Shown piece by piece: positions 15,481-49,436 of a stretch of 64,000 nt of DNA. The notes beneath the pieces are model-generated. The model ran no database searches, was not told the origin of the DNA, and saw nothing but the letters and a program-made list of their open reading frames with translations. How positions within the stretch are numbered: the first letter of the stretch is position 1; every line of letters starts with the position of its first letter. Source of the DNA: a virus (taxonomy: Duplodnaviria; Caudoviricetes). The stretch is taken from IMG/VR virus record IMGVR_UViG_3300014205_000006, positions 1 through 64,000 of that record. One strand, written 5' to 3'. Position numbers and translations under genes: made by a program.

Positions 15481-16473
15481 TTAGGCGCGGGGCGTCCAAG
15501 TCCAAGTCTCGGCGAGTTGCGGCTGATCCCACAGAGCCGCGTACTGCGGGATGCGTTCCTTCACGGCCTCGGCGTGCGCCGCCTCGATGACAGGGATCAG
15601 GTCGCCCGTCGCGATGGCCAAGCGCTCCCGCTCTTGGAAGTACATCGGGCAGACGGGGAGTTGGTCGCGCCCGTCCATGCGACGGATGTTCTCCTCGACG
15701 TAGGCGCACGTGTCGTACGAACCGTCAGAAGCGATGCACGGCGGCGTGACGAGGTTGCGGAACACCGGGTGCACCTTCGTGGCGAGTTCGTTGACCATCG
15801 AGGCGATGACCGGGGCCCAGAGCCCGCCCTGCAGAATCCAGCAGGAGCGCTCGCCGATGATGTGCGAGAGGGCGGCGAGGTTGATGCTCATCGCGATGCG
15901 GTGGGTCGCGCCGAGCGGGATGAGTTGGCGCGCGTCCTCCATCGGGACGCCCGACGCCACGAGTTCGTTGTACGCCGACTGGATGCCCTCCATCGCCGTG
16001 ATGAAGACGTCTGCCTCGGGCGAGCCGGTCTTGATCGTCTCGGGCAGGTGGTACGCGCCCTTGTCGGCGAACACGCCCATGTTCTGGATGCGCATCGACT
16101 GCGACCAGAAACTCGCGCCCTCCTCGGGAATGACGTCCACGCCGTAGTTCGGCCCGTACTTCACGCCGACGCGGTGACGGACTGCCTGCTCGCGCCAACT
16201 GACCGGCACGCCTTCGAGGATGAAGTTGAAGGTGATGAACTCACCGACCGGGATGCGCTCATCGAGGATGCGCTGGAAGAGCGACATCGCCTCGGCGCGC
16301 TCGCCGTCGAGGGAGTTGCGCGCCCGGAAGTCGTAGTCAAGGTTGAGGTTGCGGTAGCGCTGGAGAATCTCGTCCAGCGGCTCCTCGGACTTGGATGCGT
16401 CCCAGACGGCGAGCGTCTGAGAGATGGGGTTGGTGGTGTGACCAACCAGCGTGGCCTTCATCGTGTCGGACAA
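15481..16473 (-). CDS. thyX: ThyX-like flavin-dependent thymidylate synthase, divergent
   Basis: EFITFNFILEGV, REQAVRHR, SQSMR, EDARQLIPLG, NLAALSHII.ER, PPC...C. Confidence 0.75.
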   Translation of the reverse strand: MSDTMKATLVGHTTNPISQTLAVWDASKSEEPLDEILQRYRNLNLDYDFRARNSLDGERAEAMSLFQRILDERIPVGEFITFNFILEGVPVSWREQAVRHRVGVKYGPNYGVDVIPEEGASFWSQSMRIQNMGVFADKGAYHLPETIKTGSPEADVFITAMEGIQSAYNELVASGVPMEDARQLIPLGATHRIAMSINLAALSHIIGERSCWILQGGLWAPVIASMVNELATKVHPVFRNLVTPPCIASDGSYDTCAYVEENIRRMDGRDQLPVCPMYFQERERLAIATGDLIPVIEAAHAEAVKERIPQYAALWDQPQLAETWTWTPRA

Positions 16474-34675: not shown

Positions 34676-36115
34676 TTGTCCGCCCAAATCGAGGCAGAGT
34701 TCATAGCGAGCCTGCGCACCGTTGACGACATCAACTATGCGCTCGGCGTCGGCGTTCGTGACGACCTGTTCGCGAACTTCATCCCTGTCTGGCAGTGGAT
34801 TCTCCGCTACCACGGCACGACGGCGCAAGCGCCGTCCATCGGGCTGATTCAGACTCAGTTCCCGACCTTCGACCCGCCCCTCGTTGTCGGCGACGTGCGC
34901 CACCACGCTCTCCAGTTGCGCGAGGCCTACATCTCCCGCCGGGCGCGTGAGGTGATGTTCAAGGAGGCCGACAGCGGGGCTATCGACACGCAGCCGGTCG
35001 ATGCTGTGGAGCGCATCATCCGTGAGTTGTCAGGCCTTCGCATCGCCGATGACACCGCTCTGACCTTCCTCGACGGCGACGCTCTGAAACTCCTCCAAGA
35101 GGTGGAGCAGCGCTCTGCCGCGAATGCGTCCCGTCCTGAGGATGTGTTCGTCGGACTTCGGACGGGAATCGAGGTCATCGATTGCATGCGGATGGGGTGG
35201 CGACAGGGCATGTTCGGCGCCATCATCGCCCAGCCCGGCGTCGGCAAGACCGAGTTCCTCATCCGCACGGCGGCGGAGGCTTGGGGGACGGGACACCCCG
35301 TCCTGTTCATCTCGCTGGAGATGTCCGAGGCCGAAATCGGTATGCGCGCCATCCCCATCCTCGGCCATCAACTCGGCTATGGCGTCCCGTCGAACACCGA
35401 CCTGATGATGGGCACGGCCTCGCCGAAGCAGATGGCCGACTTCCGCGCTCTGGTCGAGAATGACATGGCAGTCCGTCACGACTGGGCCGTGGTCGACCAG
35501 ATTGGTCAGGGCTCATTCTCTCTCCAAGACGTGCGGGCCCGCGTCCGCGAGTTGAAGCCCGCTCTGGTCGTGATCGACGGCATCAAACTCCTCAAGGCGG
35601 AGGGCGAGTCGAAGTGGGCTCAGTACTCCAACAACATCGAGGGGTGCAAGGTGCTCGCCATGCAGGAGAAAGTGGCCGTGATCGGCGCTGAGCACGCCGG
35701 TCGGAATCAGAAAGACGTGCACACGCCGCCGACGCTTCAGGACGTGTACATGGGCGACTCCATCGGTCAGTGGGCAGACGCAGTGGCGACCATTGCCGTC
35801 CCGAAGATGAACAGTGCCGTCACTCGTCTGTTCAGTCTCCAAAAGAACCGAGGCGGCGTGACGATCAGTCGCCAGAAGACAATCTCATTCGACATCGACC
35901 GGGGCGACGTGGGACGGTGGCTTGACCCGGTGGACCAGCGCCTCAAGTCAGAGTTGGCGCGCTACCTCGACGCGGGCGGCATGGTGCCGTCAGGCCCCGG
36001 CGCGATTCCGGCTCCGACCGCCTCGGTCATCGTCGGCGCGGCGACTTCGGCCCCGCCGCCCGCACCGCCCGCATCCCACGACCCCGGCACGCGAAGGGGC
36101 TTGAGCCTTGAGTGA
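34676..36115 (+). CDS. dnaB: DnaB-like replicative helicase
   Basis: TGI..ID, AQPGVGKT, FISLEMS, LVVIDG, KNRGG. Confidence 0.9.
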   Translation: MSAQIEAEFIASLRTVDDINYALGVGVRDDLFANFIPVWQWILRYHGTTAQAPSIGLIQTQFPTFDPPLVVGDVRHHALQLREAYISRRAREVMFKEADSGAIDTQPVDAVERIIRELSGLRIADDTALTFLDGDALKLLQEVEQRSAANASRPEDVFVGLRTGIEVIDCMRMGWRQGMFGAIIAQPGVGKTEFLIRTAAEAWGTGHPVLFISLEMSEAEIGMRAIPILGHQLGYGVPSNTDLMMGTASPKQMADFRALVENDMAVRHDWAVVDQIGQGSFSLQDVRARVRELKPALVVIDGIKLLKAEGESKWAQYSNNIEGCKVLAMQEKVAVIGAEHAGRNQKDVHTPPTLQDVYMGDSIGQWADAVATIAVPKMNSAVTRLFSLQKNRGGVTISRQKTISFDIDRGDVGRWLDPVDQRLKSELARYLDAGGMVPSGPGAIPAPTASVIVGAATSAPPPAPPASHDPGTRRGLSLE

Positions 36116-37067
36116 GCAGTACCTTCCCCTCATCGAGGAGTTGGGCATCGAGAGTGGCTCGCGCTCCGGCGATGAGTTGTACACGCGCTGCCCGCTCCAC
36201 GATGACGCGGGCCCCTCGTTCGCGGTCAACTTGGACTCGGGCCTTTGGATCTGTCACGGCGGTTGCGGGCAGGGGAGCATCACCACTCTGGTCGGGCTTG
36301 TGCTCGGCCTCGACCCGCTGCGCGCCAAGTCGTACATCGTCAACTGGGACAAGGGCCACCCGCTCGACATCGACACCGAGCGGCTCCGCGAGCGCCTTGC
36401 CCCGCGCCTGTATGCCGCCGTCGGCACGGAAGACCCGGTGCACCACCTCGACATCGACGGGATGACGCAAGCGCGGCTCCCCAAGTGGTGGATCATGCGG
36501 GGCTTCGACCGGGATGACTGGAAGGCATGGGACTTGTGGATGGGGCCTACGGGCGGCATACTCATCCCTGTGTACGACCACAAGGGCATCCTGCGAGGCG
36601 ACATCAAACGCCAGCCGCCCGAGGCGATGGGGCCCAAGTACCTCTACAGCGCCGGGTTCAGCAAGTCCCACGTCCTGTACGGAGCGAACCGCCACGACCC
36701 CATCGAGACGGGTGAGCCGCTCGTGTTGGTCGAGGGCTCGCTTGACGCGATGTGGTGCTGGAAGCGGGGCCGCAAGGCCTTTGCCATTCTCGGTTCGCAC
36801 GTCAGCGAGCGTCAGACCGAGATCATCCGTCAGTTCCGTCCCGCGAGCATCACGCTCGCCTTCGACAACGACAAAGCAGGAAGGGAGGCGACCCAAGAGG
36901 GAATCGCGAGATTGAGCGGCGTCGCGCCGGTGAAGGCTGTCCAATGGACAGGGGACTTCGCGAGCGTGAATGACGTCCAAGAGTTGAAAGATGCCGATGC
37001 TCTGATCGAACTGTTGGACTCGGCTACATCCCCGTTGGCACAAGCCTTGACCAAGTCTGGAGACTGA
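36108..37067 (+). CDS. DNA primase (CHC2 Zn finger plus Toprim)
   Basis: CPLHDD..PSF...CHGGCG; LVEGSLDA; FDNDKAG. Confidence 0.9.
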   Translation: MSEQYLPLIEELGIESGSRSGDELYTRCPLHDDAGPSFAVNLDSGLWICHGGCGQGSITTLVGLVLGLDPLRAKSYIVNWDKGHPLDIDTERLRERLAPRLYAAVGTEDPVHHLDIDGMTQARLPKWWIMRGFDRDDWKAWDLWMGPTGGILIPVYDHKGILRGDIKRQPPEAMGPKYLYSAGFSKSHVLYGANRHDPIETGEPLVLVEGSLDAMWCWKRGRKAFAILGSHVSERQTEIIRQFRPASITLAFDNDKAGREATQEGIARLSGVAPVKAVQWTGDFASVNDVQELKDADALIELLDSATSPLAQALTKSGD

Positions 37068-37069
37068 TC

Positions 37070-38209
37070 ATGCCGTCAGGTGCACGCGCACTTGCTTCCG
37101 CTTCCGCTGGCGCTAAGGCGACCGGCGGCGGCAAGTCCGACTCCCCGCCCCCGTTCATCCTGAATGACCGGGATTTCGCCATCGTCCGCTTCCTCGCCAC
37201 CGGCGAGGAGGATGACCCGTTCCTCGGGTCTGCCCAAGTCCACGGCGACAAGTTCTTCAACCGGGCGTCGCGCGGTTGGGAGTCCTGCCCCACCTCGTTC
37301 GATGACCCCGAGGGCAAGTGCAACTGTCGCAACCTCCGCGATGACCAGCAGCCTTCGTACCGCTTCGGCGTCTACATGTACGTCCTCGCGCAGTACCACT
37401 TCAAGCAGCCGACCGGGAACAACGGTCAGACGGCTTCGTGGGCCAAGGACTGGCAGGCAGTCAACATCTCGCAGGCGCTCGTCCACATGATGAACGACCC
37501 GCAGGACATGAACACCGTGGACAAGGGCGTCCGGTACTTCCAAGACCGGCCCGGCTTCAAGGTGTGGTTCCGTGGCCCCGGCAAGGATGGCTACTACACC
37601 GAGCGGCTCTGGACCATCGCCTCGATGATGCCCAACCAGAACCTGTCGGCCAAGAACGTCCTCATCGCCCGGAAGCCGGACGGCAAGATCGGCCTCCACT
37701 TCATCAACGGTCGCATCGAGGACGTCAAGTCCAACGGCGAGATCAGCAACCCCGTCATCACGTTGGACATCGCGCCCGACGGCATCGTGGAGTGCAACGT
37801 CCCGCTGAACGACACCGACCGCGCGAAGATGATGCGGCTGTACGACGCGCTGCCCCCGGTGCGTGAGTTCTTCCTCGACAACTTCAAGTGGCCGCTCTTC
37901 AAGGACGAGGACAGCGAGGCCGTGGACGAGGGCCCGCAGCCGCCGGTCGTGATGCAGCAGCCGGTCGCCGCGCCGCCCGCGCCGGTGTACGAGGCCCCGG
38001 CCCCCGTCGCCGAGGCCCCGGTGTACCAGCCGCCCGTCGAGGCCCCGGTCGCCGTCGCTCCGCCGCCGGTTGCCGCCGTGCCGGACTCGGGCCCGCGTCA
38101 CGCGCCGCCGCCGCCCACGCCCGTCCCGCCCTCTGACATCGCGTCCGAGGGGCTGGAGCGGTTCGAGCCCGAGGCCACGGCCCCGCGCCGAACCTTCATG
38201 CCGGAATAG
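37070..38209 (+). CDS. Putative ssDNA-binding protein with Pro/Ala-rich tail
   Basis: Position after primase; IVRFL, H...C...C.C...PSYRF resembles gp32-like SSBs. Confidence 0.5.
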   Translation: MPSGARALASASAGAKATGGGKSDSPPPFILNDRDFAIVRFLATGEEDDPFLGSAQVHGDKFFNRASRGWESCPTSFDDPEGKCNCRNLRDDQQPSYRFGVYMYVLAQYHFKQPTGNNGQTASWAKDWQAVNISQALVHMMNDPQDMNTVDKGVRYFQDRPGFKVWFRGPGKDGYYTERLWTIASMMPNQNLSAKNVLIARKPDGKIGLHFINGRIEDVKSNGEISNPVITLDIAPDGIVECNVPLNDTDRAKMMRLYDALPPVREFFLDNFKWPLFKDEDSEAVDEGPQPPVVMQQPVAAPPAPVYEAPAPVAEAPVYQPPVEAPVAVAPPPVAAVPDSGPRHAPPPPTPVPPSDIASEGLERFEPEATAPRRTFMPE

Positions 38210-38214
38210 CAACC

Positions 38215-39078
38215 GTGAAGTGCGCCCGGTGCGGGTATGGCTGGTCGAAGGATTGCGATACCCCGCACTCGGGCCCTTGCGGTTGCGGCGCTTGGCACGA
38301 GTTCGGCCTTGGCTGCTACGGCAAGCCGGAGCCGGACTACAGACGCAATGGAGTTGAAGTGACGAATGAACCGGCAGAACCGGCTGTGAACTTCGGGATG
38401 GGACTGACCGTCAGCCCTGCCCCGTACGAGTCCATCAGGGCGGATGTGACGTTCCTGAACGTCACGCCCGCGAACATCGAGCAGGTGATCCAAGACGCGA
38501 AGCCCCTCATCGAACGTCTGTTCGAGGCGGCGCTGGGACACCTTGACGACGCGGTGACCGACGTGAGGGCAGACCGCTATGGCGGCCAGCCGCGCGTCGT
38601 GAACGCGCTCAAGCCCAAGACCTGCGGCGTGTGCGGAGGCCCGTTCCCTCAGGGCCATCGGTCGGACGAGTGCGACGCATACCGTGTCGGCACGTACACA
38701 CCGACGAACGTCCCCGTCATCAACTCGATGGAGACGCTCGCCGAGGCCGTGACGGCCCAGTCCAACGCCAAGCGCAACCCGAAGGTCATCGCCGCCGAGC
38801 GCGCGAAGCAAGTCGAGGCGATCAAGGCGATGCAGACGGTGCTGGCGGGCGAGGGCGTGCCGCTGAGCATCTTGGAGAACGTCAGGAACACCCTCGCCGA
38901 GGGCGCGAGTCCTGAGGAGTTCCGTCAAGCCGTGACCGATGTTCTCACCGGCGCGATGTCTCTGGGCGGCGAGAAGGCAGACGACGCACCCCCGCCGACC
39001 GTCGCCCCGGCGTGGAAGAGGCCGGAGCCGATGGTGAATGCCGCCGTCGCCGCTAAGAAGGGGCTGGTGCTCGAATGA
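38215..39078 (+). CDS. Hypothetical protein with Cys/His micro-domains
   Basis: YESIRAD core flanked by Zn motifs. Confidence 0.55.
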   Translation: MKCARCGYGWSKDCDTPHSGPCGCGAWHEFGLGCYGKPEPDYRRNGVEVTNEPAEPAVNFGMGLTVSPAPYESIRADVTFLNVTPANIEQVIQDAKPLIERLFEAALGHLDDAVTDVRADRYGGQPRVVNALKPKTCGVCGGPFPQGHRSDECDAYRVGTYTPTNVPVINSMETLAEAVTAQSNAKRNPKVIAAERAKQVEAIKAMQTVLAGEGVPLSILENVRNTLAEGASPEEFRQAVTDVLTGAMSLGGEKADDAPPPTVAPAWKRPEPMVNAAVAAKKGLVLE

Positions 39079-39890
39079 AGGTCTGCGTACTCGGCGCGGG
39101 CCCCGCTGGCCTGATGGCCGCCTACGCCGCCATCGAGGCGGGCCACGAGGTCAAGGTCATCGACAAGGCCATCGCGTACGACATCGGCCAGCGCTTGGCC
39201 AGCGGTCAGTTGAACGCGGGCGTGTTCCTGCTCCACGACCGCTGCGGGCTCTTGCCGCTCTGGGGGCGTGACGAGCCGGTGATCTACGGCGTCATGGGCG
39301 GCGACCTTCGCCGGACGTCTGAACTCGGGCGGGAATACTCGCTCAAGGTGTATGGCGCTCCGAACGTCGACACGAGCATCAACAAGTATGGCCTCGCCGG
39401 GCCTCGCATCGAGTACGACGGCACGGCGGCGACTTGGCTCCTGTTCGACATCGTGAAGCCGTTCATCGTGCAGGGCGACGTGACGCTGGACACGCTCATC
39501 GCGGAGTTGAACAACAACGACCGGGTGATCAGCACCGTCCCGCTCAGCGTCCTTCACCCCGGCGAGATGCCGCATGTCCAGGCGTGGGTGAAGCACGGCT
39601 CGAATAAGGGCGAGTCATACGTCTGGTACGCGCCGCAACCGGCGCTCGCGTGGTACCGGGCGTCAGCGGCCTTCGGACGCTTCACGCTTGAGTGGCCGGG
39701 GCACATCGACCAGCCCGACCCCGGCGCGCGCCGCATTGTGAAGCCCATCAAGCCCTCGCCCGAGGGGCAAGCGTTCATCGACGCGTGGGAGGCGACCAAC
39801 CACGTGCTCTTCACGGGTCGGTTCGGACGCTGGGACAAGTCCATCGAGCAGCACAACGTGTACGAGGCGGTCTTGGAGTTCCTCCGATGA
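39075..39890 (+). CDS. FAD-dependent oxidoreductase (UDP-galactopyranose mutase-like fold)
   Basis: VCVLGAGPAGLMAA, ISTVPL, FTGRFGRW. Confidence 0.8.
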   Translation: MKVCVLGAGPAGLMAAYAAIEAGHEVKVIDKAIAYDIGQRLASGQLNAGVFLLHDRCGLLPLWGRDEPVIYGVMGGDLRRTSELGREYSLKVYGAPNVDTSINKYGLAGPRIEYDGTAATWLLFDIVKPFIVQGDVTLDTLIAELNNNDRVISTVPLSVLHPGEMPHVQAWVKHGSNKGESYVWYAPQPALAWYRASAAFGRFTLEWPGHIDQPDPGARRIVKPIKPSPEGQAFIDAWEATNHVLFTGRFGRWDKSIEQHNVYEAVLEFLR

Positions 39891-40705
39891 CCGAGTTCGA
39901 GGACATGTGGGATGAGCAGAAGGGCTTTCAGGCCCTGATGGGCGAGGACGCGCTGCCCGAGGCAGACCGCATCGCGCGCCTCGGTGAACTCGCCCTGCTC
40001 GCGACCGGCGAGGGCGTGGACATGCTCAACGCGCTCGGCTACAAGCATCATCGCCCGTTCGTGAAGCCGAACTGGGCGAATGCCCGCGCCGAGTACGTCG
40101 ACATGCTCAAGTACACGCTGGCCATCGGCGTCGTGTCGGGCTTCAACGTCCAAGCCGTGGTCTCGGACTTCTGGAGCAAGTCAGACGTCGTGAAGCAGCG
40201 CTACCTGCGCGAGCGCAACGAGGACAGGTCGCAGCCTTGCGCCATCTTCGACCTCGACGGCGTGATCGCGCACTACAACGCGCCGAGCGCCGAGGAGATT
40301 GCCGATGGCGCGTTCCTCCGCGCTGAGCCGTACCTCACGACTCGCGCGCTGCTCGGCAAGGTGCAGGCGGCGGGCTTGCGGGTCGTGATCATCACCGCTC
40401 GCAAGGAGACGCGCTATCGCAACGTCGTCACTGACACGGAGCGCTGGCTGAAGATGCACGCCGTGCCGTATGACTCCCTCATCTTCGCGTTCGACAAGCG
40501 GACGGCGGCAGAGGACTTCGCGCCGGTGTTCGCCGTCGAGGACTCGCCGAAGCATGCGATGGACTACGCATCGGCGGGCATCCGCACTTGGCTGATCACC
40601 CCTTCGGCGGCGCTGATGCCGCCGACTCCGAACCTGACGATTCGGTACTCGGTCTCAGAGGCCGTGAGCGACATCGAAACGCTGTTGGCGGGACGCACCG
40701 CATGA
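39887..40705 (+). CDS. MazG/dimeric dUTPase-like domain fused to a HAD phosphatase
   Basis: N-terminal E..D...K.HR...EYVD..KY; C-terminal IFDLDGVIA, ITAR, K, EDSP. Confidence 0.75.
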   Translation: MTEFEDMWDEQKGFQALMGEDALPEADRIARLGELALLATGEGVDMLNALGYKHHRPFVKPNWANARAEYVDMLKYTLAIGVVSGFNVQAVVSDFWSKSDVVKQRYLRERNEDRSQPCAIFDLDGVIAHYNAPSAEEIADGAFLRAEPYLTTRALLGKVQAAGLRVVIITARKETRYRNVVTDTERWLKMHAVPYDSLIFAFDKRTAAEDFAPVFAVEDSPKHAMDYASAGIRTWLITPSAALMPPTPNLTIRYSVSEAVSDIETLLAGRTA

Positions 40706-41124
40706 AGTTGGGCGAGCCAGAGGAGTTGAAGTTGACGCAGATTGAAGAGGGCACCCGTTCCGTGGTCGTGGACTTCATCCACACCGATGAGGGGCTCACG
40801 ATGTCGTGGCAGGGCATCGAACTGCCGCGCGAGGAGTTCTTCAAGTTCCTCGACGGACTGAAGCGCATCATCGGGATGAGGGCGGCGATGCTCTCCCACC
40901 CGCAGACCGGCATCTGGCGCGTTGACGAGGCCTCGCTGAAGGCCTACGGCAAGACGCAGGACGCGACGCGGCCCTTGATCGAGGGCTACATTCAGGGCTA
41001 CTTCGGCGTGGGCTCGGTCGAGGTCACCGTGTCAGACGCCCGGACGCCCGCGCCCATCTCCTCGCCGCCGTCCGCCGTTGGCGGCCCCTCGTGGCGGCAG
41101 CGCCAAGCGGAGGGTCTGCGATGA
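40702..41124 (+). CDS. Hypothetical protein
   Basis: ATGA coupling on both sides. Confidence 0.6.
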   Translation: MKLGEPEELKLTQIEEGTRSVVVDFIHTDEGLTMSWQGIELPREEFFKFLDGLKRIIGMRAAMLSHPQTGIWRVDEASLKAYGKTQDATRPLIEGYIQGYFGVGSVEVTVSDARTPAPISSPPSAVGGPSWRQRQAEGLR

Positions 41125-44100
41125 CCCTCATCGGCCCTGAGGACTTCGTTGACCTCCACGTCCACACGACCTTCTCATACCTCGACGGGATTGGGCACCC
41201 CGCCGACGTGATCAAGCGCGCCGCCGAGTTGGGGCGCAAGGCGATTGCGATCACAGACCACGGCAGCGTCTCCGGCCACCCGTACTTCGAGATTGCCGCC
41301 GGGAAGTCTGGCATCAAACCCATCTTCGGCTGCGAGGTGTACCAGACCGGCTCGGCGGCGGGCGACAAGGCGAACAAGAAGCGGGTCAACCGTCACCTGT
41401 CCGTCCTCGCCCGGAATGAGCGCGGCTACCAGAACCTGCTCGGCCTCGTGAGCCAGTCATACCGTGACTTCTACTACAAACCGCTCACGGACAACAAGAA
41501 CCTCGGCGATCACCTTGAAGGCCTTGTCGTGATGTCCGGGTGCCTCTCGGGTCACATCGCTGAGCGACTCCTCATCAACGACTTCGACGGCGCGTTGAAG
41601 GCTGCGCAAGCCTTCCGTGACGCGCTCGGCGATGACTACTACCTTGAGACCCAGTTGTTCGACCTTGACGACACGCGCAAGGTGAACTACGGCGTGATGG
41701 ACTTGGCGAAGCAGACCGGCATCCCGCTCGTGATGACCGGCGACGTCCACATGATGACGGAGGATCAGCGCGACGTTCGCAAGTTGCTCCACAAGGTGCG
41801 CGACGGCAAGGGCTGGTATGACGAGGACGCGGGTGACTTCCAGTACCTGTCCGAGTACCAGTTGCTCCCGCACGAGTTGGAGCACTTCGCTGACAAGGCC
41901 GGGCTGCTCCCCATCTTCAAGGAGGCGGCGGAGAACACGCTGGCCATCGCCGAGAAGTGCACGGTGGCCATCCCCAAGTCCGAGTTCATCCACTTCCCGA
42001 TTCCGTGCCTTGAGTGCGGCGAGGACGAGGTTCAGCACGACGGCTCGAAGTGTGTTGGCGGGTACGTCCCGCGCTTCAAGTCGAATGCCGAGATGTTCTA
42101 TCAGCAGATTCACGATGGCTGCGCCTTCAGGGGAGTTGACTTCAACAACCCGACGATCAAGGCACGCATCTTGTACGAGGCGGGGCTGATCGAGTCCAAG
42201 AACTTCACTGACTACTTCCTCGTGGTCGGTGACCTCGTGCGGTGGTCGAAGGATCAAGGCATCTTGGTCGGCCCGTCGCGCGGCTCCTCGGCGGGCTCGC
42301 TCATCTGCTGGCTCCTGCGCATCACGGAGATCAACCCTCTGGACTTCGGGCTCCTGTTCGAACGCTTCATCGATGTGCTGCGCTCCGATCTGCCCGACAT
42401 CGACATCGACTTCGACTCGAACAAGCGCCAGCAAGTCCGTGACTACATGGCGCGGAAGTACGGCAACGACCGGGTGGGGATGCTCGGAACCTTCACGCAG
42501 TGGAAGGGCAAGAACGCCCTCGACTCGGTAGGCCGCGTGTTCGGCATCCCCAAGACTGACGTCGAGACAGTGAAGAACCTGATCATCGACCGTTCGAGCG
42601 CTGACGCTCGCGCCGGGGCGACGATTGAGGACACGTTCTCAGCGTTCCCTGCGGCAGAGGCGGTCGCGAAGAAGTACCCCGACATCATGCGAGCGGTCGC
42701 CCTTGAGGGACAGTACAAGGGGTGGTCAACTCACGCTTGCGGCTTCATGGTCTCCTCGCGCCCGTTGGAGGAGGTCTGCGCGTTCTACTACAAGCCTGAC
42801 GACCCTCACGGCATCGTCAGCGTCGACAAGAAGGGCGCTGACCACCTCGGGCTCATCAAGATTGACATCCTCGGCATCTCGGCGCTGTCGGTCATCCAAG
42901 AGTGCCTCACGGCGACCGGGATGTCGATGGGCGACCTGTATGACATGACGCGCCCGGACTCGCTCGCCGACCCGATGGTGCTCGACGGCTTCAGCCGTCA
43001 GGACATCTTCGGCATCTTCCAGTTCGAGGGGAACGCCATGCGCTCCGTCCTCAGCGAGTTCGATGCGCCGGTCACGTTCGCGGAGTTGGCCGATATGGTC
43101 GCCCTCTGTCGGCCCGGCCCACTCCACGGCGGCATGACGCGCAACTACGTCCTGATCAGGAACGGCATCGGCGAGCCGACCACCCTTCACCCGTCCGTGG
43201 ACGAGCAACTGGCCTACACGTACGGACAGGTGGTCTATCAGGAGCAACTGCTCAACATCGCCCGCTACGTCGGCCAGATGACTTGGGAGTCGATCAACGA
43301 CCTCCGCAACTCGATGGCCCGCAAGTACGGCAAGGAGCACATGAACTCCATGCGCGAGGAGTTCGTGACGGGCTCTGTGAAGTCCGGCCTGACGGAGGCG
43401 CAGGCAATCGCCACGTGGGAGTCGATGGTCTCGTTCGGACAGTGGGCCTTCAACCTCTCGCACAGCGTCGGATACGCCATCCTCGCGTACTGGGCGATGT
43501 ACTTCAAGCAGCACTACCCGACGCAGTTCTACGCAGCCGCGTTGAACAACGGGCCGGACGACAACCTCAAGCGGATGTACCTCTTGGAGTTCCAGCGGAA
43601 GGGCGGCGTGATCCTGCCGCCGCACATCAACAAGTCCGGCTCCGGCTGGACGGTGGACTCCCACATGCGGATTCGCGCCGGGTTCGCCGCCATCGACGGC
43701 ATCGGCGATACGGTCGCCGCCCGCATCGTGGCGGGACAGCCGTACGCCGACGCTGCCGACCTCGCCGGGCGACGGACTCACCAGCCGACCATCGCCAACC
43801 CGAACCGGATGGCCGTGGTCGCGAACAAGGCTCACATCGCCGCCCTCGACCGCGTGGGCGCGTGGAGTGACGAGGAGGCGATGGATGACTTCCTCGGTCT
43901 CAAGTCGCTCACCGATGCGCTTGACAACTGCGGGGCGACGCACAAGATCGGCCTGATCCAACACGCCGACGAAGGCGACATGTTCGTGGCGGGCGTGCTC
44001 TCGCGTCGCAACCAGCGCTCCACCGCTGAAGAGGAGCACGAGCGCTCCCGGCGCGTTGACCCGGTGACGGGCGAGTTGCAGATCATCGAGCGCCGGGCGC

Positions 44101-44411
44101 TGTCGCGACCCGACCTTGACGAGTTCTGCATCTTCAACGTCGAGGACGACACCGGCATCATCGTCGGATACGTCAACCGCTTCCGCTACCCGAAGTTCAA
44201 GCAACTGATCTGGCAGACGGCTCGCGACGGCGACATCGTCCTGCTCCAAGGCACGAAGTCAGCCGGGCGTCGCCGCGTGGACGTGGACTACATGGAGATC
44301 ATGTACCGTCAGCGGCCTGATCGGACGTACCAGCCCTATGACCAGTGGGTCGAGGAGCAAGAGGAGGCTGAAGCAGCCGCCGCAGCACTGGCGCAGGAGG
44401 CGACGGCATGA
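41121..44411 (+). CDS. dnaE: DNA polymerase III alpha subunit (family C) with intact PHP domain
   Basis: LHVHTTFSYLDG, TDHG, RGSSAGSL, PDIDIDF, KIDILG, FQFEG, YQEQ, FNLSHSVGY. Confidence 0.95.
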   Translation: MTLIGPEDFVDLHVHTTFSYLDGIGHPADVIKRAAELGRKAIAITDHGSVSGHPYFEIAAGKSGIKPIFGCEVYQTGSAAGDKANKKRVNRHLSVLARNERGYQNLLGLVSQSYRDFYYKPLTDNKNLGDHLEGLVVMSGCLSGHIAERLLINDFDGALKAAQAFRDALGDDYYLETQLFDLDDTRKVNYGVMDLAKQTGIPLVMTGDVHMMTEDQRDVRKLLHKVRDGKGWYDEDAGDFQYLSEYQLLPHELEHFADKAGLLPIFKEAAENTLAIAEKCTVAIPKSEFIHFPIPCLECGEDEVQHDGSKCVGGYVPRFKSNAEMFYQQIHDGCAFRGVDFNNPTIKARILYEAGLIESKNFTDYFLVVGDLVRWSKDQGILVGPSRGSSAGSLICWLLRITEINPLDFGLLFERFIDVLRSDLPDIDIDFDSNKRQQVRDYMARKYGNDRVGMLGTFTQWKGKNALDSVGRVFGIPKTDVETVKNLIIDRSSADARAGATIEDTFSAFPAAEAVAKKYPDIMRAVALEGQYKGWSTHACGFMVSSRPLEEVCAFYYKPDDPHGIVSVDKKGADHLGLIKIDILGISALSVIQECLTATGMSMGDLYDMTRPDSLADPMVLDGFSRQDIFGIFQFEGNAMRSVLSEFDAPVTFAELADMVALCRPGPLHGGMTRNYVLIRNGIGEPTTLHPSVDEQLAYTYGQVVYQEQLLNIARYVGQMTWESINDLRNSMARKYGKEHMNSMREEFVTGSVKSGLTEAQAIATWESMVSFGQWAFNLSHSVGYAILAYWAMYFKQHYPTQFYAAALNNGPDDNLKRMYLLEFQRKGGVILPPHINKSGSGWTVDSHMRIRAGFAAIDGIGDTVAARIVAGQPYADAADLAGRRTHQPTIANPNRMAVVANKAHIAALDRVGAWSDEEAMDDFLGLKSLTDALDNCGATHKIGLIQHADEGDMFVAGVLSRRNQRSTAEEEHERSRRVDPVTGELQIIERRALSRPDLDEFCIFNVEDDTGIIVGYVNRFRYPKFKQLIWQTARDGDIVLLQGTKSAGRRRVDVDYMEIMYRQRPDRTYQPYDQWVEEQEEAEAAAAALAQEATA

Positions 44412-44875
44412 TGTACATCGGCATCGACCCCGGAGTGACGGGCGCAATCGCGTTCATCAACCCGGAGGGATTCTCATGGGTCGAGGACACGCCGGTCGAG
44501 AAGGCGACGTCAGGCCACAACTACCTCGGCGCGTCGATGGCGGCGCTGATCAAGAGCGTCGAGCGCAACGGCATCGTCCACGCGTGCATCGAGGACATCG
44601 TAACGCTGCCCGGGCAGAACCCGGCGCACGTCGCCAAGCGCGGGCGTGGGCTCGGCATCTGGGAGGGAATCCTGCTGGCGGAGGGCATCCCCTACACCAT
44701 CGTGCGCCCTCACATCTGGAAGAAAGAGATGGGGCTGTCGTCCGACAAGTCGAGCAGCCGGGCGCTCGCTCAGCAACTGCACCCTGACCTCGCCGCGTGC
44801 TTCGCTCGCGTCAAGGATGACGGGCGCGCCGAGGCAGCGCTGATCGCCGACTACGGCATGCGGAAGGGGTTGTAA
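44408..44875 (+). CDS. RuvC-like Holliday junction resolvase
   Basis: IGIDPG..GA, IED, P..WKK, DGRAEAALIA. Confidence 0.85.
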   Translation: MMYIGIDPGVTGAIAFINPEGFSWVEDTPVEKATSGHNYLGASMAALIKSVERNGIVHACIEDIVTLPGQNPAHVAKRGRGLGIWEGILLAEGIPYTIVRPHIWKKEMGLSSDKSSSRALAQQLHPDLAACFARVKDDGRAEAALIADYGMRKGL

Positions 44876-45885
44876 TGGCCGGCAAGAAGCAGATGACGAG
44901 CATCGCAGACCTTCACAAGAAGCACCTGCTGATGAAGGGCGATGACCCTCGGCTGGTCATCAAGTACCTCTCGACCGGCATCGGCGCGCTGGACGAGATC
45001 ACCGGCGGCGGCATCCCGCGCGGACGCGTCAGCCTCGCCGTGGGGCGCGAGTCGGCGGGCAAGACGTTGATCTGCCAGTACACGGCGGCGGAGACGCAGC
45101 GTCAGGGCGGGACGGTCGCCCTCATCGATGCCGAGCAGGCATTCGACGGCGACTGGTGGGCCGGGACGGGCGTGAACGTCAGCGACCTCATCCTCAGCCG
45201 CCCGTCGAATGGCGAGGAGGCCGTGGATGTTGCGATGGCGCTGGTCGGCGAGGTTGACCTCATCCTCATCGACTCGATGGCAGCGCTCATCCCCTCGGCG
45301 GTGATGGAGCAGTCGGCGGAGGACAACAACGTCGCCGGGCTCTCGCGCGTCCACAAGAAGTTGTTCGACCGCATCATCGCTCCGCTCGGACTCAGCAAGA
45401 CCGCGATTCTGGCCACCAACCAGTTCAGGGTCGCCATCGGGAATCCCGACCCGAGCGCCGTGTCGTTCCCCGGCGGCGAGGCGCAGCGCTTCTGGTCCAG
45501 CCTGACGATGCGAGTGTCGAAGGGCGGCTGGATTGAGACCGGCGGCGAGAAGATGGGCTTCAAGGTCGGCGTGTACGTCATGAAGAACAAGACTGGCCGC
45601 GCCTACAGGTCTGTTACGCTGCCGTTCACCTTCGATGGCCTGTTCGACTACGTGACCGTGGTCGTGGCGGAGGCCATCGACAAGGAGATCATCCAACACT
45701 CGGGCGCGTGGTACCGCTTCCCGTCCGAATGGCCGGTGGCCATCGTTCCTGATGCCGGGTACGGGCTCCTGCCCGAGGCGCACCGTGTGCAGGGACTCGA
45801 CAAGGTGCATCAAATCTTCGCTCAGAACCCGGAGGCGCTTGAGTGCCTCAAGGCGGCGACGTACGCCAAGGAGGAGGTCGCGTGA
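44875..45885 (+). CDS. recA: RecA-like recombinase
   Basis: STG...LD...GGGIPRGR, GRESAGKT, IDAE, IDSMAAL, NQFR, PGG, KNK. Confidence 0.9.
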   Translation: MAGKKQMTSIADLHKKHLLMKGDDPRLVIKYLSTGIGALDEITGGGIPRGRVSLAVGRESAGKTLICQYTAAETQRQGGTVALIDAEQAFDGDWWAGTGVNVSDLILSRPSNGEEAVDVAMALVGEVDLILIDSMAALIPSAVMEQSAEDNNVAGLSRVHKKLFDRIIAPLGLSKTAILATNQFRVAIGNPDPSAVSFPGGEAQRFWSSLTMRVSKGGWIETGGEKMGFKVGVYVMKNKTGRAYRSVTLPFTFDGLFDYVTVVVAEAIDKEIIQHSGAWYRFPSEWPVAIVPDAGYGLLPEAHRVQGLDKVHQIFAQNPEALECLKAATYAKEEVA

Positions 45886-48160: not shown

Positions 48161-48478
48161 ATGTCGTGGCCGAAAGGTCGGAAGCATACACAGGAGGAGT
48201 TGGACCGCATCCGCGCGGCTCGCAAGGGCCCGGCGCTCCCGCCGAAGGATGCGGCCCCGATTCGTGACACGTCCGTGAACCGGACGAGTTCAATTCCGTG
48301 CATCGCTGGCACCGTGCACCACTGGAAGATCAACGACGCGCTCATGGGCCTGTGCAAGAACTGCGGAGCGGGGCACCAGTTCGTGCACGAGGTCGGTCAA
48401 CAAGTCGAGTTGCACGCATCGCCGTGGGACGTTCAGGGGTGGGCGGCGAACCCGCAGAGAGTAGCCAACATTGACTGA
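48161..48478 (+). CDS. NUMOD3-like motif plus Zn-ribbon protein
   Basis: KGRKHTQEELDRIRAARKG; C..HHW...CKNCG. Confidence 0.55.
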   Translation: MSWPKGRKHTQEELDRIRAARKGPALPPKDAAPIRDTSVNRTSSIPCIAGTVHHWKINDALMGLCKNCGAGHQFVHEVGQQVELHASPWDVQGWAANPQRVANID

Positions 48479-49436
48479 ATCAGGTACGCTCGGAGAGGCT
48501 CGCCGTTCCATCGGGGGCAGCGTGGACTGTGGGAGTCCCGGCCCCTCGCCTACTCACCCCAAGAGTCGGGCGGCGGCGAGCCACCCCTTCACCCTCCAGC
48601 GCTTCAACTGGAACAACGAGCCCGGCGAGTTCGCTGTGGGCGTCCCCATCTACTACGGGGACGAGCGGAAGCGCAAGAACAACCTCAAGCGCCTCGATGC
48701 CTCGCTCGCGCTGCTCGCCGCCGCGAACCCCGGAGCGACATTCCTCCTGCTCGATGACGGTTCTCCCGCGCCCGTGGACGTGGACCATTTCTCGCCAATC
48801 CTAGGCAACGTCGCATGGGCCTACGCGCGGCAGGAGAACCGGGGAGCGGGCGGGGCATACCACGCGCTTCAGGTCGCCCTCTCGCCGTGCCGGTACGTCG
48901 CGAACCTCGACGCCGACGTGGAGTTGGACGACCCGCTCGCCCTCCAGCACGCCGCTGAGGGCTTCGACGCGAACCCGGACGCGGTGATCATCTCCTCGAA
49001 CATCACCTACTTCGCGCGCATGTGGTTCGCGCAGAACCCGGACGGCGGGCGGTGGGTGTCGGGCGCGAACAGCGCGGACTTCCGCCTGTACAAGTCCATC
49101 CTGCTCGGTGAAGTGGGGTACGTTGACCCTGAGATTCGTCGCCTCGAAGATGGCGAGTTCAGGCTGCGTATGGAGGCGCTTCACGGCCTGAAGGTGTACG
49201 TTGACCGGCTCATTACGGGCAAGGCGACGCCGGGGATGACCGACGCCGCGCGTGCCGAGGAGAACGTGCCGATGGTGCTGTCCCGCTCGCCGTGGGCGCA
49301 GGCAACTCGGCGGAGGGATGGGAGGTTCCTGTCGCTCAGGCTCCGTGCGAAGGCGCGAGAGCAGAACTGGCAGGACAGGTACGTCGGGCCCGCGCCCTAC
49401 GCACTCGCGCTCCGCGACGCGCTGTGGGAGGCCTGA
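48471..49436 (+). CDS. GT-A fold (GT2-like) glycosyltransferase
   Basis: VGVPIY, LLLDDGS, ENRG, NLDAD, EDGEF..R. Confidence 0.7.
   Translation: MTESGTLGEARRSIGGSVDCGSPGPSPTHPKSRAAASHPFTLQRFNWNNEPGEFAVGVPIYYGDERKRKNNLKRLDASLALLAAANPGATFLLLDDGSPAPVDVDHFSPILGNVAWAYARQENRGAGGAYHALQVALSPCRYVANLDADVELDDPLALQHAAEGFDANPDAVIISSNITYFARMWFAQNPDGGRWVSGANSADFRLYKSILLGEVGYVDPEIRRLEDGEFRLRMEALHGLKVYVDRLITGKATPGMTDAARAEENVPMVLSRSPWAQATRRRDGRFLSLRLRAKAREQNWQDRYVGPAPYALALRDALWEA

What the first reader, a model, noticed from the sequence alone, without database searches (positions are those of the whole stretch)
39075..40705. FAD oxidoreductase and MazG/dUTPase-HAD fusion embedded just upstream of DnaE
Seen: a compact 271-aa flavoprotein with a UDP-galactopyranose-mutase-like N and C terminus is translationally coupled to a two-domain all-alpha NTP pyrophosphatase + HAD phosphatase, one gene before dnaE. 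Established: flavoproteins act in some phage thymidine hypermodification pathways and in NDP-sugar ring contraction; MazG/dUTPase and HAD nucleotidases remove canonical nucleotides. Inference: this is the second module of the modification system. The fusion could take an unwanted dNTP down to the nucleoside in one polypeptide, while the flavoprotein tailors the base or a sugar donor.
Basis: partly seen in the sequence, partly recalled or inferred. Interest (0 to 1): 0.7.

Follow-up and report, generated by a model that had tools for sequence, protein, structure and literature searches.

The report
Phage flavoprotein plus pyrophosphatase-phosphatase gene pair
Two overlapping genes of an uncultured 101-kb phage encode a small virus-only flavoprotein and a fused nucleotide pyrophosphatase-phosphatase; this pair recurs in many phages and always alongside a ThyX-type thymidylate-synthase-like gene, so it probably helps make or edit thymidine-type DNA precursors, but its chemistry is unknown.

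Summary
39075-39890 encodes a 271-aa single-Rossmann FAD protein. 39887-40705 (ATGA overlap) encodes a four-helix all-alpha NTP pyrophosphatase domain with its acidic metal site (E42, D45, E69, D72), fused to a HAD phosphatase with all four catalytic motifs. One correction: a 140-aa ORF (40702-41124) lies between the fusion and dnaE.

The flavoprotein is not a UDP-galactopyranose mutase. It lacks the helical domain and any GLF sequence match, and its fold ties with protoporphyrinogen oxidases and group A monooxygenases. It belongs to a large, almost purely viral, uncharacterised family: 624 clusters at E<1e-30, phrog_8720.

In 34 of 39 related phage loci the flavoprotein gene has a HAD homologue of the fusion's C-domain downstream on the same strand. 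A ThyX-family gene is present in 23 of 23 records tested; a class-III aminotransferase in 0 of 23; GT2 above Pfam's cut-off in 0 of 23. The two closest relatives use PolA instead of DnaE, so the cassette is not tied to DnaE.

Best reading (about 0.42): an accessory pair of a ThyX-type pyrimidine-nucleotide pathway, with the fusion taking a pyrimidine dNTP to the nucleoside. No chemistry is shown. This scan has noted the same cassette at least eight times on other DNA.

The parts
39075..39890 (+). FLAV: 271-aa FAD-binding protein of a virus-only family. GxGxxG at residues 7-12; family motifs YxxKVYG (88-94), WYRxS (193-197) and GRxGxWxK (248-255).
   Evidence: Pfam matches the N-terminal Rossmann only; phrog_8720, unknown function. 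Family alignments A1 and A3. 624 clusters at E<1e-30. AF2 pLDDT 77.8. Fold matches. Atlas 95-100% viral.
39887..40222 (+). N-domain of the fusion (residues 1-112): four-helix all-alpha NTP pyrophosphatase, dimeric-dUTPase/DCTPP1-like. Acidic set E42, D45, E69, D72, plus K53-x-H55-R56 and K75.
   Evidence: PF08761 at E 0.005, below the cut-off. The profile of three N-domains hits only Leishmania, Campylobacter and Trypanosoma dUTPases, DCTPP1 and MazG-like proteins in the PDB, best E 7.6e-6, with the ExxE and ExxD motifs aligned. Helices 2-17, 25-49, 63-84 and 88-110 in the model.
40223..40705 (+). C-domain of the fusion (residues 113-272): HAD phosphatase with a very short cap. Motif I D122-x-D124, motif II T170 (plus R172), motif III K204, motif IV E218-D219.
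   Evidence: Invariant columns in A2 and A4. HAD_PNKP at E 2e-4; phrog_415 at E 5e-12. Fold Z 15.0 to GmhB, 13.9 to a deoxyribonucleotidase-like protein, 13.6 to T4 Pnkp phosphatase. AphA tops Foldseek.
40702..41124 (+). orf140: unknown protein lying between the fusion and dnaE, with ATGA overlaps at both ends.
   Evidence: Sequence and translation. No Pfam or PHROG hit. No relation to the accessory gene clusters of related loci.
41121..44411 (+). DnaE-type DNA polymerase III alpha, downstream end of the coupled gene run.
   Evidence: phmmer E 1e-122 to 1e-211 against the full-length DnaE genes of related loci. The start overlaps the orf140 stop.
38215..39078 (+). orf287: Cys-rich unknown protein whose stop overlaps the FLAV start. 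Not part of the conserved cassette.
15481..16473 (-). ThyX-like gene, the only thymidylate-synthase-type gene of the genome. It is linked to the pair by co-occurrence in other phages, not by position in this one.
   Evidence: PF02511 at E 2e-18. Sole hit in the whole genome; no ThyA. ThyX family in 23 of 23 FLAV-bearing records.

Best explanation
The two genes are the local form of an old, phage-only gene pair that serves a ThyX-type pyrimidine-nucleotide pathway. The pair is a small flavoprotein followed by a HAD phosphatase.

In this lineage the HAD has gained an N-terminal all-alpha NTP pyrophosphatase domain. The proposed reaction is that the N-domain cuts a pyrimidine dNTP (dUTP and/or dTTP) to dNMP plus PPi, and the HAD domain then removes the 5'-phosphate. 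This would drain a canonical pyrimidine from the pool, or supply and regulate dUMP for the ThyX-like enzyme.

The flavoprotein is a two-domain single-Rossmann FAD enzyme of the UGM / protoporphyrinogen oxidase / amine-oxidase class. It would carry out a flavin-dependent step on the same nucleotide or nucleoside, or on its C5 side chain.

Shown here: the domain architecture, the catalytic motifs, the fold class, the conserved gene order and the strict co-occurrence with ThyX-family genes.

Inferred: the substrates, the order of the steps, and any effect on the DNA.
For: Gene order:
- A HAD homologous to the fusion's C-domain lies downstream of FLAV on the same strand in 34 of 39 loci.
- In 22 of the 31 loci where both genes were called, the two ORFs overlap or abut.

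Co-occurrence:
- A ThyX-family gene is present in 23 of 23 FLAV-bearing records, 13 of 13 among those at least 90% complete.
- ThyX-like is the very next gene after the fusion in L004. It follows after one small gene in L008, and it directly follows FLAV in Microbacterium phages.
- tblastn counts in GenBank phages are identical for FLAV and for the RQR-type ThyX: Gordonia 46, Microbacterium 36, Mycobacterium 32.
- The cassette is kept with PolA in L004 and L008 and with DnaE elsewhere, so it is not merely a passenger of one replicase.

The fusion:
- Joining an NTP pyrophosphatase to the HAD argues that the HAD substrate is a nucleoside monophosphate.
- E42, D45, E69 and D72 align with the metal ligands of dimeric dUTPases, and the HAD motifs are invariant.
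- The genome has no trimeric dUTPase, no ThyA, and a single ThyX-like gene.
- pI values of 5-6.7 fit small-molecule enzymes better than DNA binders.

Precedent, from my own knowledge: thymine-replacing Bacillus phages induce dTTPase/dUTPase and dTMP nucleotidase activities.
Against: - No assay exists for any member, so the substrates are guesses.
- The HAD fold does not separate nucleotidases from sugar-bisphosphate or polynucleotide 3'-phosphatases. GmhB, deoxyribonucleotidase-like and T4 Pnkp lie within 1.5 Z units of each other.
- In the three closest fusion homologues, two of the four acidic residues are Gln and His, so the pyrophosphatase activity may be altered or lost in part of the clade.
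- Most carriers of the pair (cluster D mycobacteriophages, Gordonia phages and others) are not known to have modified DNA.
- Co-occurrence is partly explained by common descent.
- In this phage the pair lies 23 kb from the ThyX-like gene, on the other strand.
- An earlier check in this scan found that, for PB1-like phages, a plain dTMP-making reading also fits.
Confidence: 0.42

Rival explanations
1. Ordinary thymidylate supply and pool cleaning. The ThyX-like protein is a true thymidylate synthase. The N-domain of the fusion is simply the phage's dUTPase, making dUMP and keeping uracil out of the DNA. The HAD is a balancing nucleotidase. The flavoprotein is a redox helper of ThyX, for example one that hands over or regenerates reduced flavin. 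The DNA is unmodified.
For: - The genome has no other dUTPase and no ThyA.
- The N-domain's best matches are dUTPases.
- Carriers such as the cluster D mycobacteriophages are not known to be modified.
- FLAV-linked ThyX proteins have lost the His of the RHR motif, which could go with a need for a flavin partner.
- An earlier check in this scan reached the same plain reading for PB1-like phages.
Against: - Canonical ThyX needs no partner flavoprotein.
- A phosphatase fused to a dUTPase would destroy the dUMP that ThyX needs.
- FLAV has one dinucleotide fold and no separate NAD(P)H domain, unlike the usual flavin reductases.
- This phage also carries an aminotransferase next to the ThyX-like gene, and GT2, DUF550 and dCMP deaminase genes elsewhere, which plain dTMP synthesis does not need.
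Confidence: 0.3
2. Action on DNA. The HAD is a Pnkp-type 3'-phosphatase that heals DNA ends, or removes a phosphate from a modified base in DNA. The flavoprotein works after replication on flipped-out bases, as the flavin-dependent lyase NGTO of phage PaMx11 does.
For: - The best Pfam and PHROG hits of the HAD are polynucleotide kinase-phosphatase domains. PB1 gp59 reaches HAD_PNKP at E 3e-10.
- T4 Pnkp phosphatase gives Z 13.6.
- The cap is very short in the fused form, as in HADs that take large substrates.
- The genes sit among replication and recombination genes.
- NGTO is a similarly compact (286 aa) GR2 flavoprotein that binds DNA (PMC11472151).
- The Pbunavirus modification is restricted to TG sites, which implies a step on DNA (PMC12191111).
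Against: - FLAV has no similarity to NGTO beyond the Rossmann fold.
- Most HADs of the family carry a roughly 55-aa helical cap, typical of small-molecule substrates.
- The fusion to an NTP pyrophosphatase points to free nucleotides.
- The pI values are acidic.
- No kinase domain accompanies the HAD.
Confidence: 0.13
3. Sugar-donor pathway. The UGM-like flavoprotein and a sugar-phosphate phosphatase, with an SDR or an epimerase/dehydratase in some relatives, tailor an activated sugar. A glycosyltransferase then puts that sugar on a modified base.
For: - UGMs top the Foldseek list.
- The nearest named Atlas clusters are viral GLF-family proteins.
- GmhB, a sugar-bisphosphate phosphatase, is the best fold match of the HAD (Z 15.0).
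- An SDR follows the pair in 15 loci, and L008 carries an NDP-sugar-type epimerase/dehydratase.
- Phage RL38J1 has a true UGM among its predicted cytosine-glycosylation genes, and RB69 and DLP3 use a HAD in arabinose-donor synthesis (PMC13326640).
- The window has a GT2 at 48471-49436.
Against: - GT2 is over the cut-off in 0 of 23 FLAV-bearing records.
- FLAV has no GLF Pfam match, and hhalign against E. coli Glf aligns only the Rossmann fold.
- The uridine-binding helical domain is missing.
- No sugar-1-phosphate nucleotidyltransferase was seen near the pair.
- The fused NTP pyrophosphatase has no role in such a pathway.
Confidence: 0.1

Closest known systems
The 'oxidoreductase - phosphatase/nucleotidase - (FabG-like SDR, methyltransferase) - DnaE - ThyX-like' gene block annotated in actinobacteriophages (Mycobacterium phage Hawkeye gp70-71, Gordonia phage NovaSharks gp71-72, Streptomyces phage Yara gp50-49)
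   Same: Homologous flavoprotein at 26-28% identity with the same length and motifs. It is followed on the same strand by a homologous HAD, lies upstream of DnaE, and a ThyX-like gene is in the genome.
   Different: In those phages the HAD stands alone and carries a roughly 55-aa helical cap. Here the cap is cut short and an all-alpha NTP pyrophosphatase domain is fused in front. No SDR or methyltransferase is present here, and the ThyX-like gene is 23 kb away. The function is untested in every one of them.
UDP-galactopyranose mutase (Glf, PF03275; PDB 3HDQ, 1I8T, 4DSG)
   Same: FAD Rossmann N-terminus and overall two-domain flavin fold. A C-terminal GR-x-G-x-aromatic motif returns to the FAD domain. 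UGMs give the best Foldseek E-values and VIA Z 14.4.
   Different: About 100 residues shorter and without the five-helix uridine-binding domain. There is no GLF Pfam match, and no profile similarity to E. coli Glf beyond the first 31 residues. The fold score ties with protoporphyrinogen oxidases and group A monooxygenases.
Dimeric dUTPases and DCTPP1/MazG all-alpha NTP pyrophosphohydrolases (PF08761; PDB 2CJE, 1W2Y, 2OIE); phage T4 gp56 dCTPase-dUTPase belongs to this class (own knowledge)
   Same: Four-helix core with aligned ExxE/D and ExxD metal ligands and a W/Y-K-x-H/W motif between them.
   Different: Only 112 residues, so it lacks the second, mobile domain of dimeric dUTPases. It scores below Pfam's cut-off. 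It is fused to a HAD phosphatase. The second ligand is Asp here, and the first pair is Gln/His in the nearest homologues.
Thymine exclusion in hydroxymethyluracil and uracil phages of Bacillus (phi-e and SP8 dTTPase/dUTPase and dTMP nucleotidase; PBS2 dTMPase). Activities known from classical enzymology (own knowledge)
   Same: The two predicted activities of the fusion in series, dNTP to dNMP to nucleoside, are just what these phages use to remove the canonical pyrimidine.
   Different: There the activities were described as separate induced enzymes, and no homology was tested here. There is no evidence that this phage excludes thymine.
NGTO, the flavin-dependent lyase of thymidine hypermodification (PaMx11 gp47, PDB 8Z2O; PMC11472151)
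   Same: A compact (286 aa) phage GR2 flavoprotein encoded beside nucleotide and replication genes.
   Different: No sequence similarity beyond the Rossmann fold. It is not among the top fold matches. NGTO works with an amino-acid:DNA transferase and a thymidylate-synthase homologue of the ThyA type, neither of which is found here.

Membership tests
UDP-galactopyranose mutase (GLF, PF03275) | Sequence match to the GLF domain | tested here: not met
   No PF03275 hit at E up to 0.1. hhalign of the 114-sequence family profile against E. coli Glf aligns 31 Rossmann residues only, probability 1.8%.
UDP-galactopyranose mutase (GLF, PF03275) | Three-domain build with a five-helix uridine-binding domain, about 365-400 aa or more | tested here: not met
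   271 aa. The model shows no helical bundle domain. All 150 listed relatives are 245-294 aa.
UDP-galactopyranose mutase (GLF, PF03275) | Fold closer to UGM than to other FAD enzymes | tested here: inconclusive
   UGMs lead Foldseek at E 1.5e-9. In VIA, however, UGM at Z 14.4 ties with protoporphyrinogen oxidase (14.1, 14.0) and monooxygenases (13-14).
GR2-class FAD flavoproteins (single FAD Rossmann plus substrate domain) | N-terminal GxGxxG beta-alpha-beta and a two-domain fold | tested here: met
   NAD_binding_8 and FAD_binding_2 score above their cut-offs. More than 200 solved chains reach Z 8 or more over residues 1-271.
All-alpha NTP pyrophosphohydrolases (dimeric dUTPase PF08761 / MazG / DCTPP1) | Four-helix core with ExxE...ExxD metal ligands | tested here: met
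   Four helices in the model. E42-x-x-D45 and E69-x-x-D72 align with the ExxE and ExxD of the Leishmania and Campylobacter dUTPases.
All-alpha NTP pyrophosphohydrolases (dimeric dUTPase PF08761 / MazG / DCTPP1) | Pfam score over the curated cut-off | tested here: not met
   17.5 bits against a cut-off of 22.9. The same family is the best hit for two of the three N-domains (second for L008), always below the cut-off.
Dimeric dUTPase proper | Second mobile domain, about 230-290 aa in all; dUTP/dUDP specificity | tested here: not met
   The domain has 112 residues. Specificity cannot be tested with these tools.
HAD-superfamily phosphatases | Motifs I (DxD), II (T/S), III (K), IV (E/D-D) on a Rossmannoid fold | tested here: met
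   D122, D124, T170 and D219 are invariant across 21 sequences, K204 is nearly invariant there, and E218 is invariant among the four closest. Z 15.0 to GmhB and more than 40 HADs at Z 12 or above.
T4-type polynucleotide kinase-phosphatase | 5'-kinase domain joined to the phosphatase | tested here: not met
   No P-loop kinase domain is present. The N-domain is an all-alpha pyrophosphatase.
5'(3')-deoxyribonucleotidase (NT5C, PF06941) | Sequence match and four-helix cap | tested here: inconclusive
   No NT5C hit for the window protein. There is a weak one (E 0.055) for the Arthrobacter phage homologue. Fold Z 13.9 and 12.4 to deoxyribonucleotidase-type structures.
Thymidine hypermodification pathway of the M6 / ViI / PaMx11 type | Flavin-dependent lyase NGTO homologue | tested here: not met
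   BLASTP and hhalign against PaMx11 gp47 align the Rossmann fold only.
Thymidine hypermodification pathway of the M6 / ViI / PaMx11 type | 5-hmdU DNA kinase and amino-acid:DNA transferase (aGPT-Pplase) | not tested

The most novel reading that the evidence does not exclude
The flavoprotein is a stripped-down UGM-type catalyst that uses reduced flavin N5 as a covalent carrier. ThyX uses its flavin this way for a methylene group, and UGM for a sugar. Together with the His-less ThyX-like enzyme, it would attach a sugar-derived carbon chain to C5 of a deoxyuridylate. The HAD would then remove the phosphate left on that chain or on the nucleotide.

This would make the cassette the missing gene set for the sugar-alcohol-like thymidines reported, without assigned genes, in Pbunavirus F8 and 14-1. 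PB1 carries a distant FLAV homologue, a Pnkp-type HAD and an RTR-type ThyX beside its DnaE. It would also imply similar unseen modifications in hundreds of actinophages and in this phage.
Probability: 0.1. Interest if true: 0.9.

Novelty: new variant of a known kind. Interest (0 to 1): 0.55.

Why it matters
The flavoprotein family is large (more than 600 clusters at 50% identity), almost purely viral and has no assigned function. Yet it tracks ThyX-type genes one-to-one across very different phages, including mycobacteriophages and, distantly, the PB1-like therapy phages, whose thymidine modification still has no genes assigned.

The fused pyrophosphatase-phosphatase of this phage is a natural Rosetta stone. 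It says the partner phosphatase probably works on nucleoside monophosphates, which turns an anonymous 'oxidoreductase + hydrolase' pair into a testable nucleotide-pool or base-modification hypothesis.

If the plain reading is right, the result is still useful: it would define a new accessory pair for flavin-dependent thymidylate synthesis in phages.

Tried and rejected
- A PDB hit to 8UCS 'OmpA family protein' (E 1e-3) vanished with the broader profile. I treat it as chance.
- The search for longer, fused forms of the flavoprotein found only Rossmann-level matches to unrelated multidomain reductases.
- The genome-contig scan with the family pattern found no relative in 185,579 species genomes. 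The A3 alignment was too diverse to give a pattern.
- Scans of viral and metagenome contigs with the fusion alignment returned only distant HADs, no further fusions.
- hhalign of the window's orf379, orf287, orf140 and three other unknown ORFs against the accessory clusters of related loci (c6, c9, c12, SDR, methyltransferase, c18) gave nothing.
- The N-domain shows no specific similarity to the PB1 MazG-like gp51 or to the window's own DUF550 protein.
- The 446-aa ThyX-like protein of Microbacterium phage MortySmith is not a HAD-ThyX fusion.
- PaMx11 NGTO is not a relative and did not appear among the listed fold matches.
- The PB1 gp59 HAD could not be tied to the fusion's HAD by profile (probability 4%), although both hit HAD_PNKP.
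Full report
**What is there**

The window is 64 kb of a complete 101,277-bp uncultured phage genome with direct terminal repeats and 65% GC. On the + strand a run of translationally coupled genes crosses the finding:

| Coordinates | Gene |
|---|---|
| 34676-36115 | DnaB-like helicase |
| 36108-37067 | primase |
| 37070-38209 | orf379 |
| 38215-39078 | orf287 |
| 39075-39890 | flavoprotein, 271 aa (FLAV below) |
| 39887-40705 | fusion protein, 272 aa |
| 40702-41124 | orf140 |
| 41121-44411 | DnaE |
| 44408-44875 | RuvC-like resolvase |
| 44875-45885 | RecA-like recombinase |

The junctions orf287/FLAV, FLAV/fusion, fusion/orf140 and orf140/dnaE are all ATGA overlaps. The only error is that a 140-aa ORF with no detectable relative separates the fusion from dnaE.

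**The flavoprotein**

Pfam sees only the N-terminal FAD Rossmann fold (NAD_binding_8 and FAD_binding_2 above their cut-offs). PHROGs places it in phrog_8720, of unknown function.

A profile of ten relatives found 1,591 representative clusters in 1.84 billion proteins, 624 of them at E<1e-30. All 150 listed are 245-294 aa. Across 114 members the invariant residues are G49, G75, Y88, R195, E206, G248, R249 and W253. The family motifs are YxxKVYG, WYRxS and GRxGxWxK.

The ESM Atlas shows the nearest clusters to be 95-100% viral. The nearest named ones are viral GLF-family proteins of about 330-346 aa. A pattern scan of 185,579 prokaryote species genomes found no relative.

The AlphaFold2 model has pLDDT 77.8 and pTM 0.81. 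In Foldseek it matches UDP-galactopyranose mutases best, at E 1.5e-9 and TM 0.56-0.59. In the Foldseek-independent search, however, UGM (Z 14.4) ties with protoporphyrinogen oxidases (14.1, 14.0) and group A monooxygenases (13-14).

There is no GLF Pfam match. A profile comparison with E. coli Glf aligns only the Rossmann fold. The protein is about 100 residues too short to hold UGM's helical uridine-binding domain.

It is therefore a compact FAD enzyme of the UGM / PPO / amine-oxidase class and not a UGM. It is also unrelated, beyond the Rossmann fold, to NGTO of phage PaMx11. NGTO is the one characterised compact flavoprotein of thymidine hypermodification.

**The fusion**

The model is confident, with pLDDT 88 and pTM 0.80.

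*N-domain.* Residues 1-112 form four long helices. The three available N-domains (window, L004, L008) each hit PF08761 (dimeric dUTPase) below the cut-off. Their joint profile matches, in the whole PDB, only dimeric dUTPases of Leishmania, Campylobacter and Trypanosoma (best E 7.6e-6), then DCTPP1/RS21-C6 and MazG-like pyrophosphatases. E42-x-x-D45 and E69-x-x-D72 align with the ExxE and ExxD metal ligands. In the three closest homologues the first pair is Gln/His, so activity may differ within the clade.

*C-domain.* Residues 113-272 form a HAD phosphatase. Across 21 sequences D122, D124, T170, R172 and D219 are invariant and K204 nearly so; E218 is invariant among the four closest. The fold matches are generic: GmhB Z 15.0, a deoxyribonucleotidase-like protein 13.9, T4 Pnkp phosphatase 13.6, with AphA topping Foldseek. 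Structure alone therefore does not name the substrate.

**Context in other phages**

Distant FLAV homologues in Gordonia, Streptomyces and Mycobacterium phages are annotated 'oxidoreductase'. Each is followed by a 'hydrolase', 'phosphatase' or 'nucleotidase' and sits upstream of DnaE. Those HADs are remote homologues of the fusion's C-domain.

A scan of IMG/VR gave 36 more loci. The tallies over the 39 loci are:

| Feature | Loci (of 39 unless stated) |
|---|---|
| FLAV and HAD clusters both present, HAD downstream on the same strand | 34 |
| The two ORFs overlap or abut, among the 31 loci where both genes were called | 22 |
| DnaE 1-6 kb downstream | 30 |
| ThyX-family gene clustered within 8 kb | 22 |
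| SDR as an accessory gene | 15 |
| SAM methyltransferase as an accessory gene | 8 |
| Small unknown protein (cluster c6) | 22 |

The stand-alone HADs carry a roughly 55-aa helical cap with the motif KLAYRQGGxKR. The fused forms (window, P0014-16, L004, L008) have a shortened cap and the added N-domain.

The two closest IMG/VR relatives have these gene orders:
- L008: FLAV - fusion - IscA-like protein - ThyX-like - NAD epimerase/dehydratase - TMK-like - PolA
- L004: UDG-like - FLAV - fusion - ThyX-like - TMK-like - PolA

The cassette is therefore kept with a different replicase.

| Family | FLAV-bearing records with a hit (of 23) |
|---|---|
| PF02511 (ThyX) | 23 (13 of 13 among those at least 90% complete) |
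| Class-III aminotransferase | 0 |
| GT2 | 0 over the cut-off |
| Thymidylate kinase | 1, weak |

Records that lacked ThyX within the 8-kb flank had it elsewhere in the genome. Only fragments under 35% complete showed none.

In GenBank phages the tblastn counts for FLAV and for the actinophage-type ThyX are identical for Gordonia (46), Microbacterium (36) and Mycobacterium (32). In Microbacterium phages ThyX-like directly follows FLAV, and no HAD was detected.

All co-located ThyX proteins carry RQR, RTR or RAR instead of the canonical RHR. The window's own ThyX-like keeps RHR but has an insertion in the motif.

The window genome has no ThyA and no trimeric dUTPase.

**Link to published work**

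Notes from this scan pointed to Yee et al. 2025 (PMC12191111). I read it.
- Pbunavirus F8 and 14-1 carry thymidine derivatives of 362 and 390 Da at TG sites, replacing about a quarter of T.
- The masses fit sugar-alcohol-like or pentose-like groups.
- No genes are assigned.

I checked phage PB1 myself:
- gp68 is a distant FLAV relative (hhalign probability 92.7%).
- gp59 starts with a Pnkp-type HAD (E 3e-10).
- gp61 is an RTR-type ThyX.
- gp57 is DnaE-type.

The link is suggestive only. A TG-specific mark needs a step on DNA, and an earlier check in this scan judged that the plain dTMP reading also fits.

Lee et al. 2026 (PMC13326640) show that phage base-glycosylation pathways can include HAD sugar phosphatases, and that one phage, RL38J1, has a true UGM. 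That is the precedent for the sugar-donor rival.

No paper in the library assigns a function to the actinophage 'oxidoreductase'.

**Weighing**

The fusion of an NTP pyrophosphatase to the HAD is the most informative fact in this window. It suggests that the HAD takes a nucleoside monophosphate. The strict tie of FLAV to ThyX-family genes across several lineages and two replicase types is the most informative fact from outside the window.

Together they favour an accessory role in a ThyX-type pyrimidine pathway (0.42). The rivals are plain thymidylate supply and pool cleaning (0.30), action on DNA (0.13) and sugar-donor synthesis (0.10). None of the chemistry is shown.

The link to the ThyX-like gene is.

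Noticed in passing
window 40702-41124 (+): A 140-aa ORF lies between the fusion and dnaE, coupled to both by ATGA overlaps. It has no Pfam or PHROG hit and is not related to the accessory genes found at this position in other phages.
   Followed up: partly
window 37070-38209 (+) and 38215-39078 (+): Two unknown proteins lie between the primase and FLAV. orf379 ends in a long Pro/Ala-rich tail. orf287 begins with a Cys-rich stretch. Neither has family hits, and neither is part of the conserved cassette.
   Followed up: partly
L003-L039 ThyX-like genes; PB1 gp61 (L040:14031-14948, -); window 15481-16473 (-): Every ThyX-family protein found next to a FLAV gene has RQR, RTR or RAR in place of the canonical RHR of the ThyX motif. 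The window's copy keeps RHR but has a roughly 17-residue insertion before the motif serine.
   Followed up: partly
L008:9700-12559 (+): In the closest complete relative (90.9 kb), an IscA/HesB-type Fe-S assembly protein sits just before the ThyX-like gene and an NAD-dependent epimerase/dehydratase just after it, all within the run from the FLAV-fusion pair to PolA.
   Followed up: no
L004:7564-8004 (+): A uracil-DNA-glycosylase-superfamily gene sits directly upstream of FLAV in this relative.
   Followed up: no
L041:5917-8057 (Microbacterium phage MortySmith): FLAV is followed directly by a 446-aa ThyX-like protein and no HAD was detected. In that lineage the core pair is therefore FLAV plus ThyX-like.
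   Followed up: partly
L022 and L033 (both from IMGVR_UViG_3300046533_000294, 129.7 kb): One contig holds two non-identical copies of the whole FLAV-HAD-SDR...DnaE...ThyX block about 65 kb apart. It is probably two related genomes joined in assembly.
   Followed up: no
BFVD hit A0A2I6UG56, Salinibacter phage M8CC-19: A 304-aa protein named after a dATP/dGTP diphosphohydrolase N-terminal domain aligns over 278 columns with the fusion model. It may be an independent pyrophosphatase-HAD fusion.
   Followed up: no
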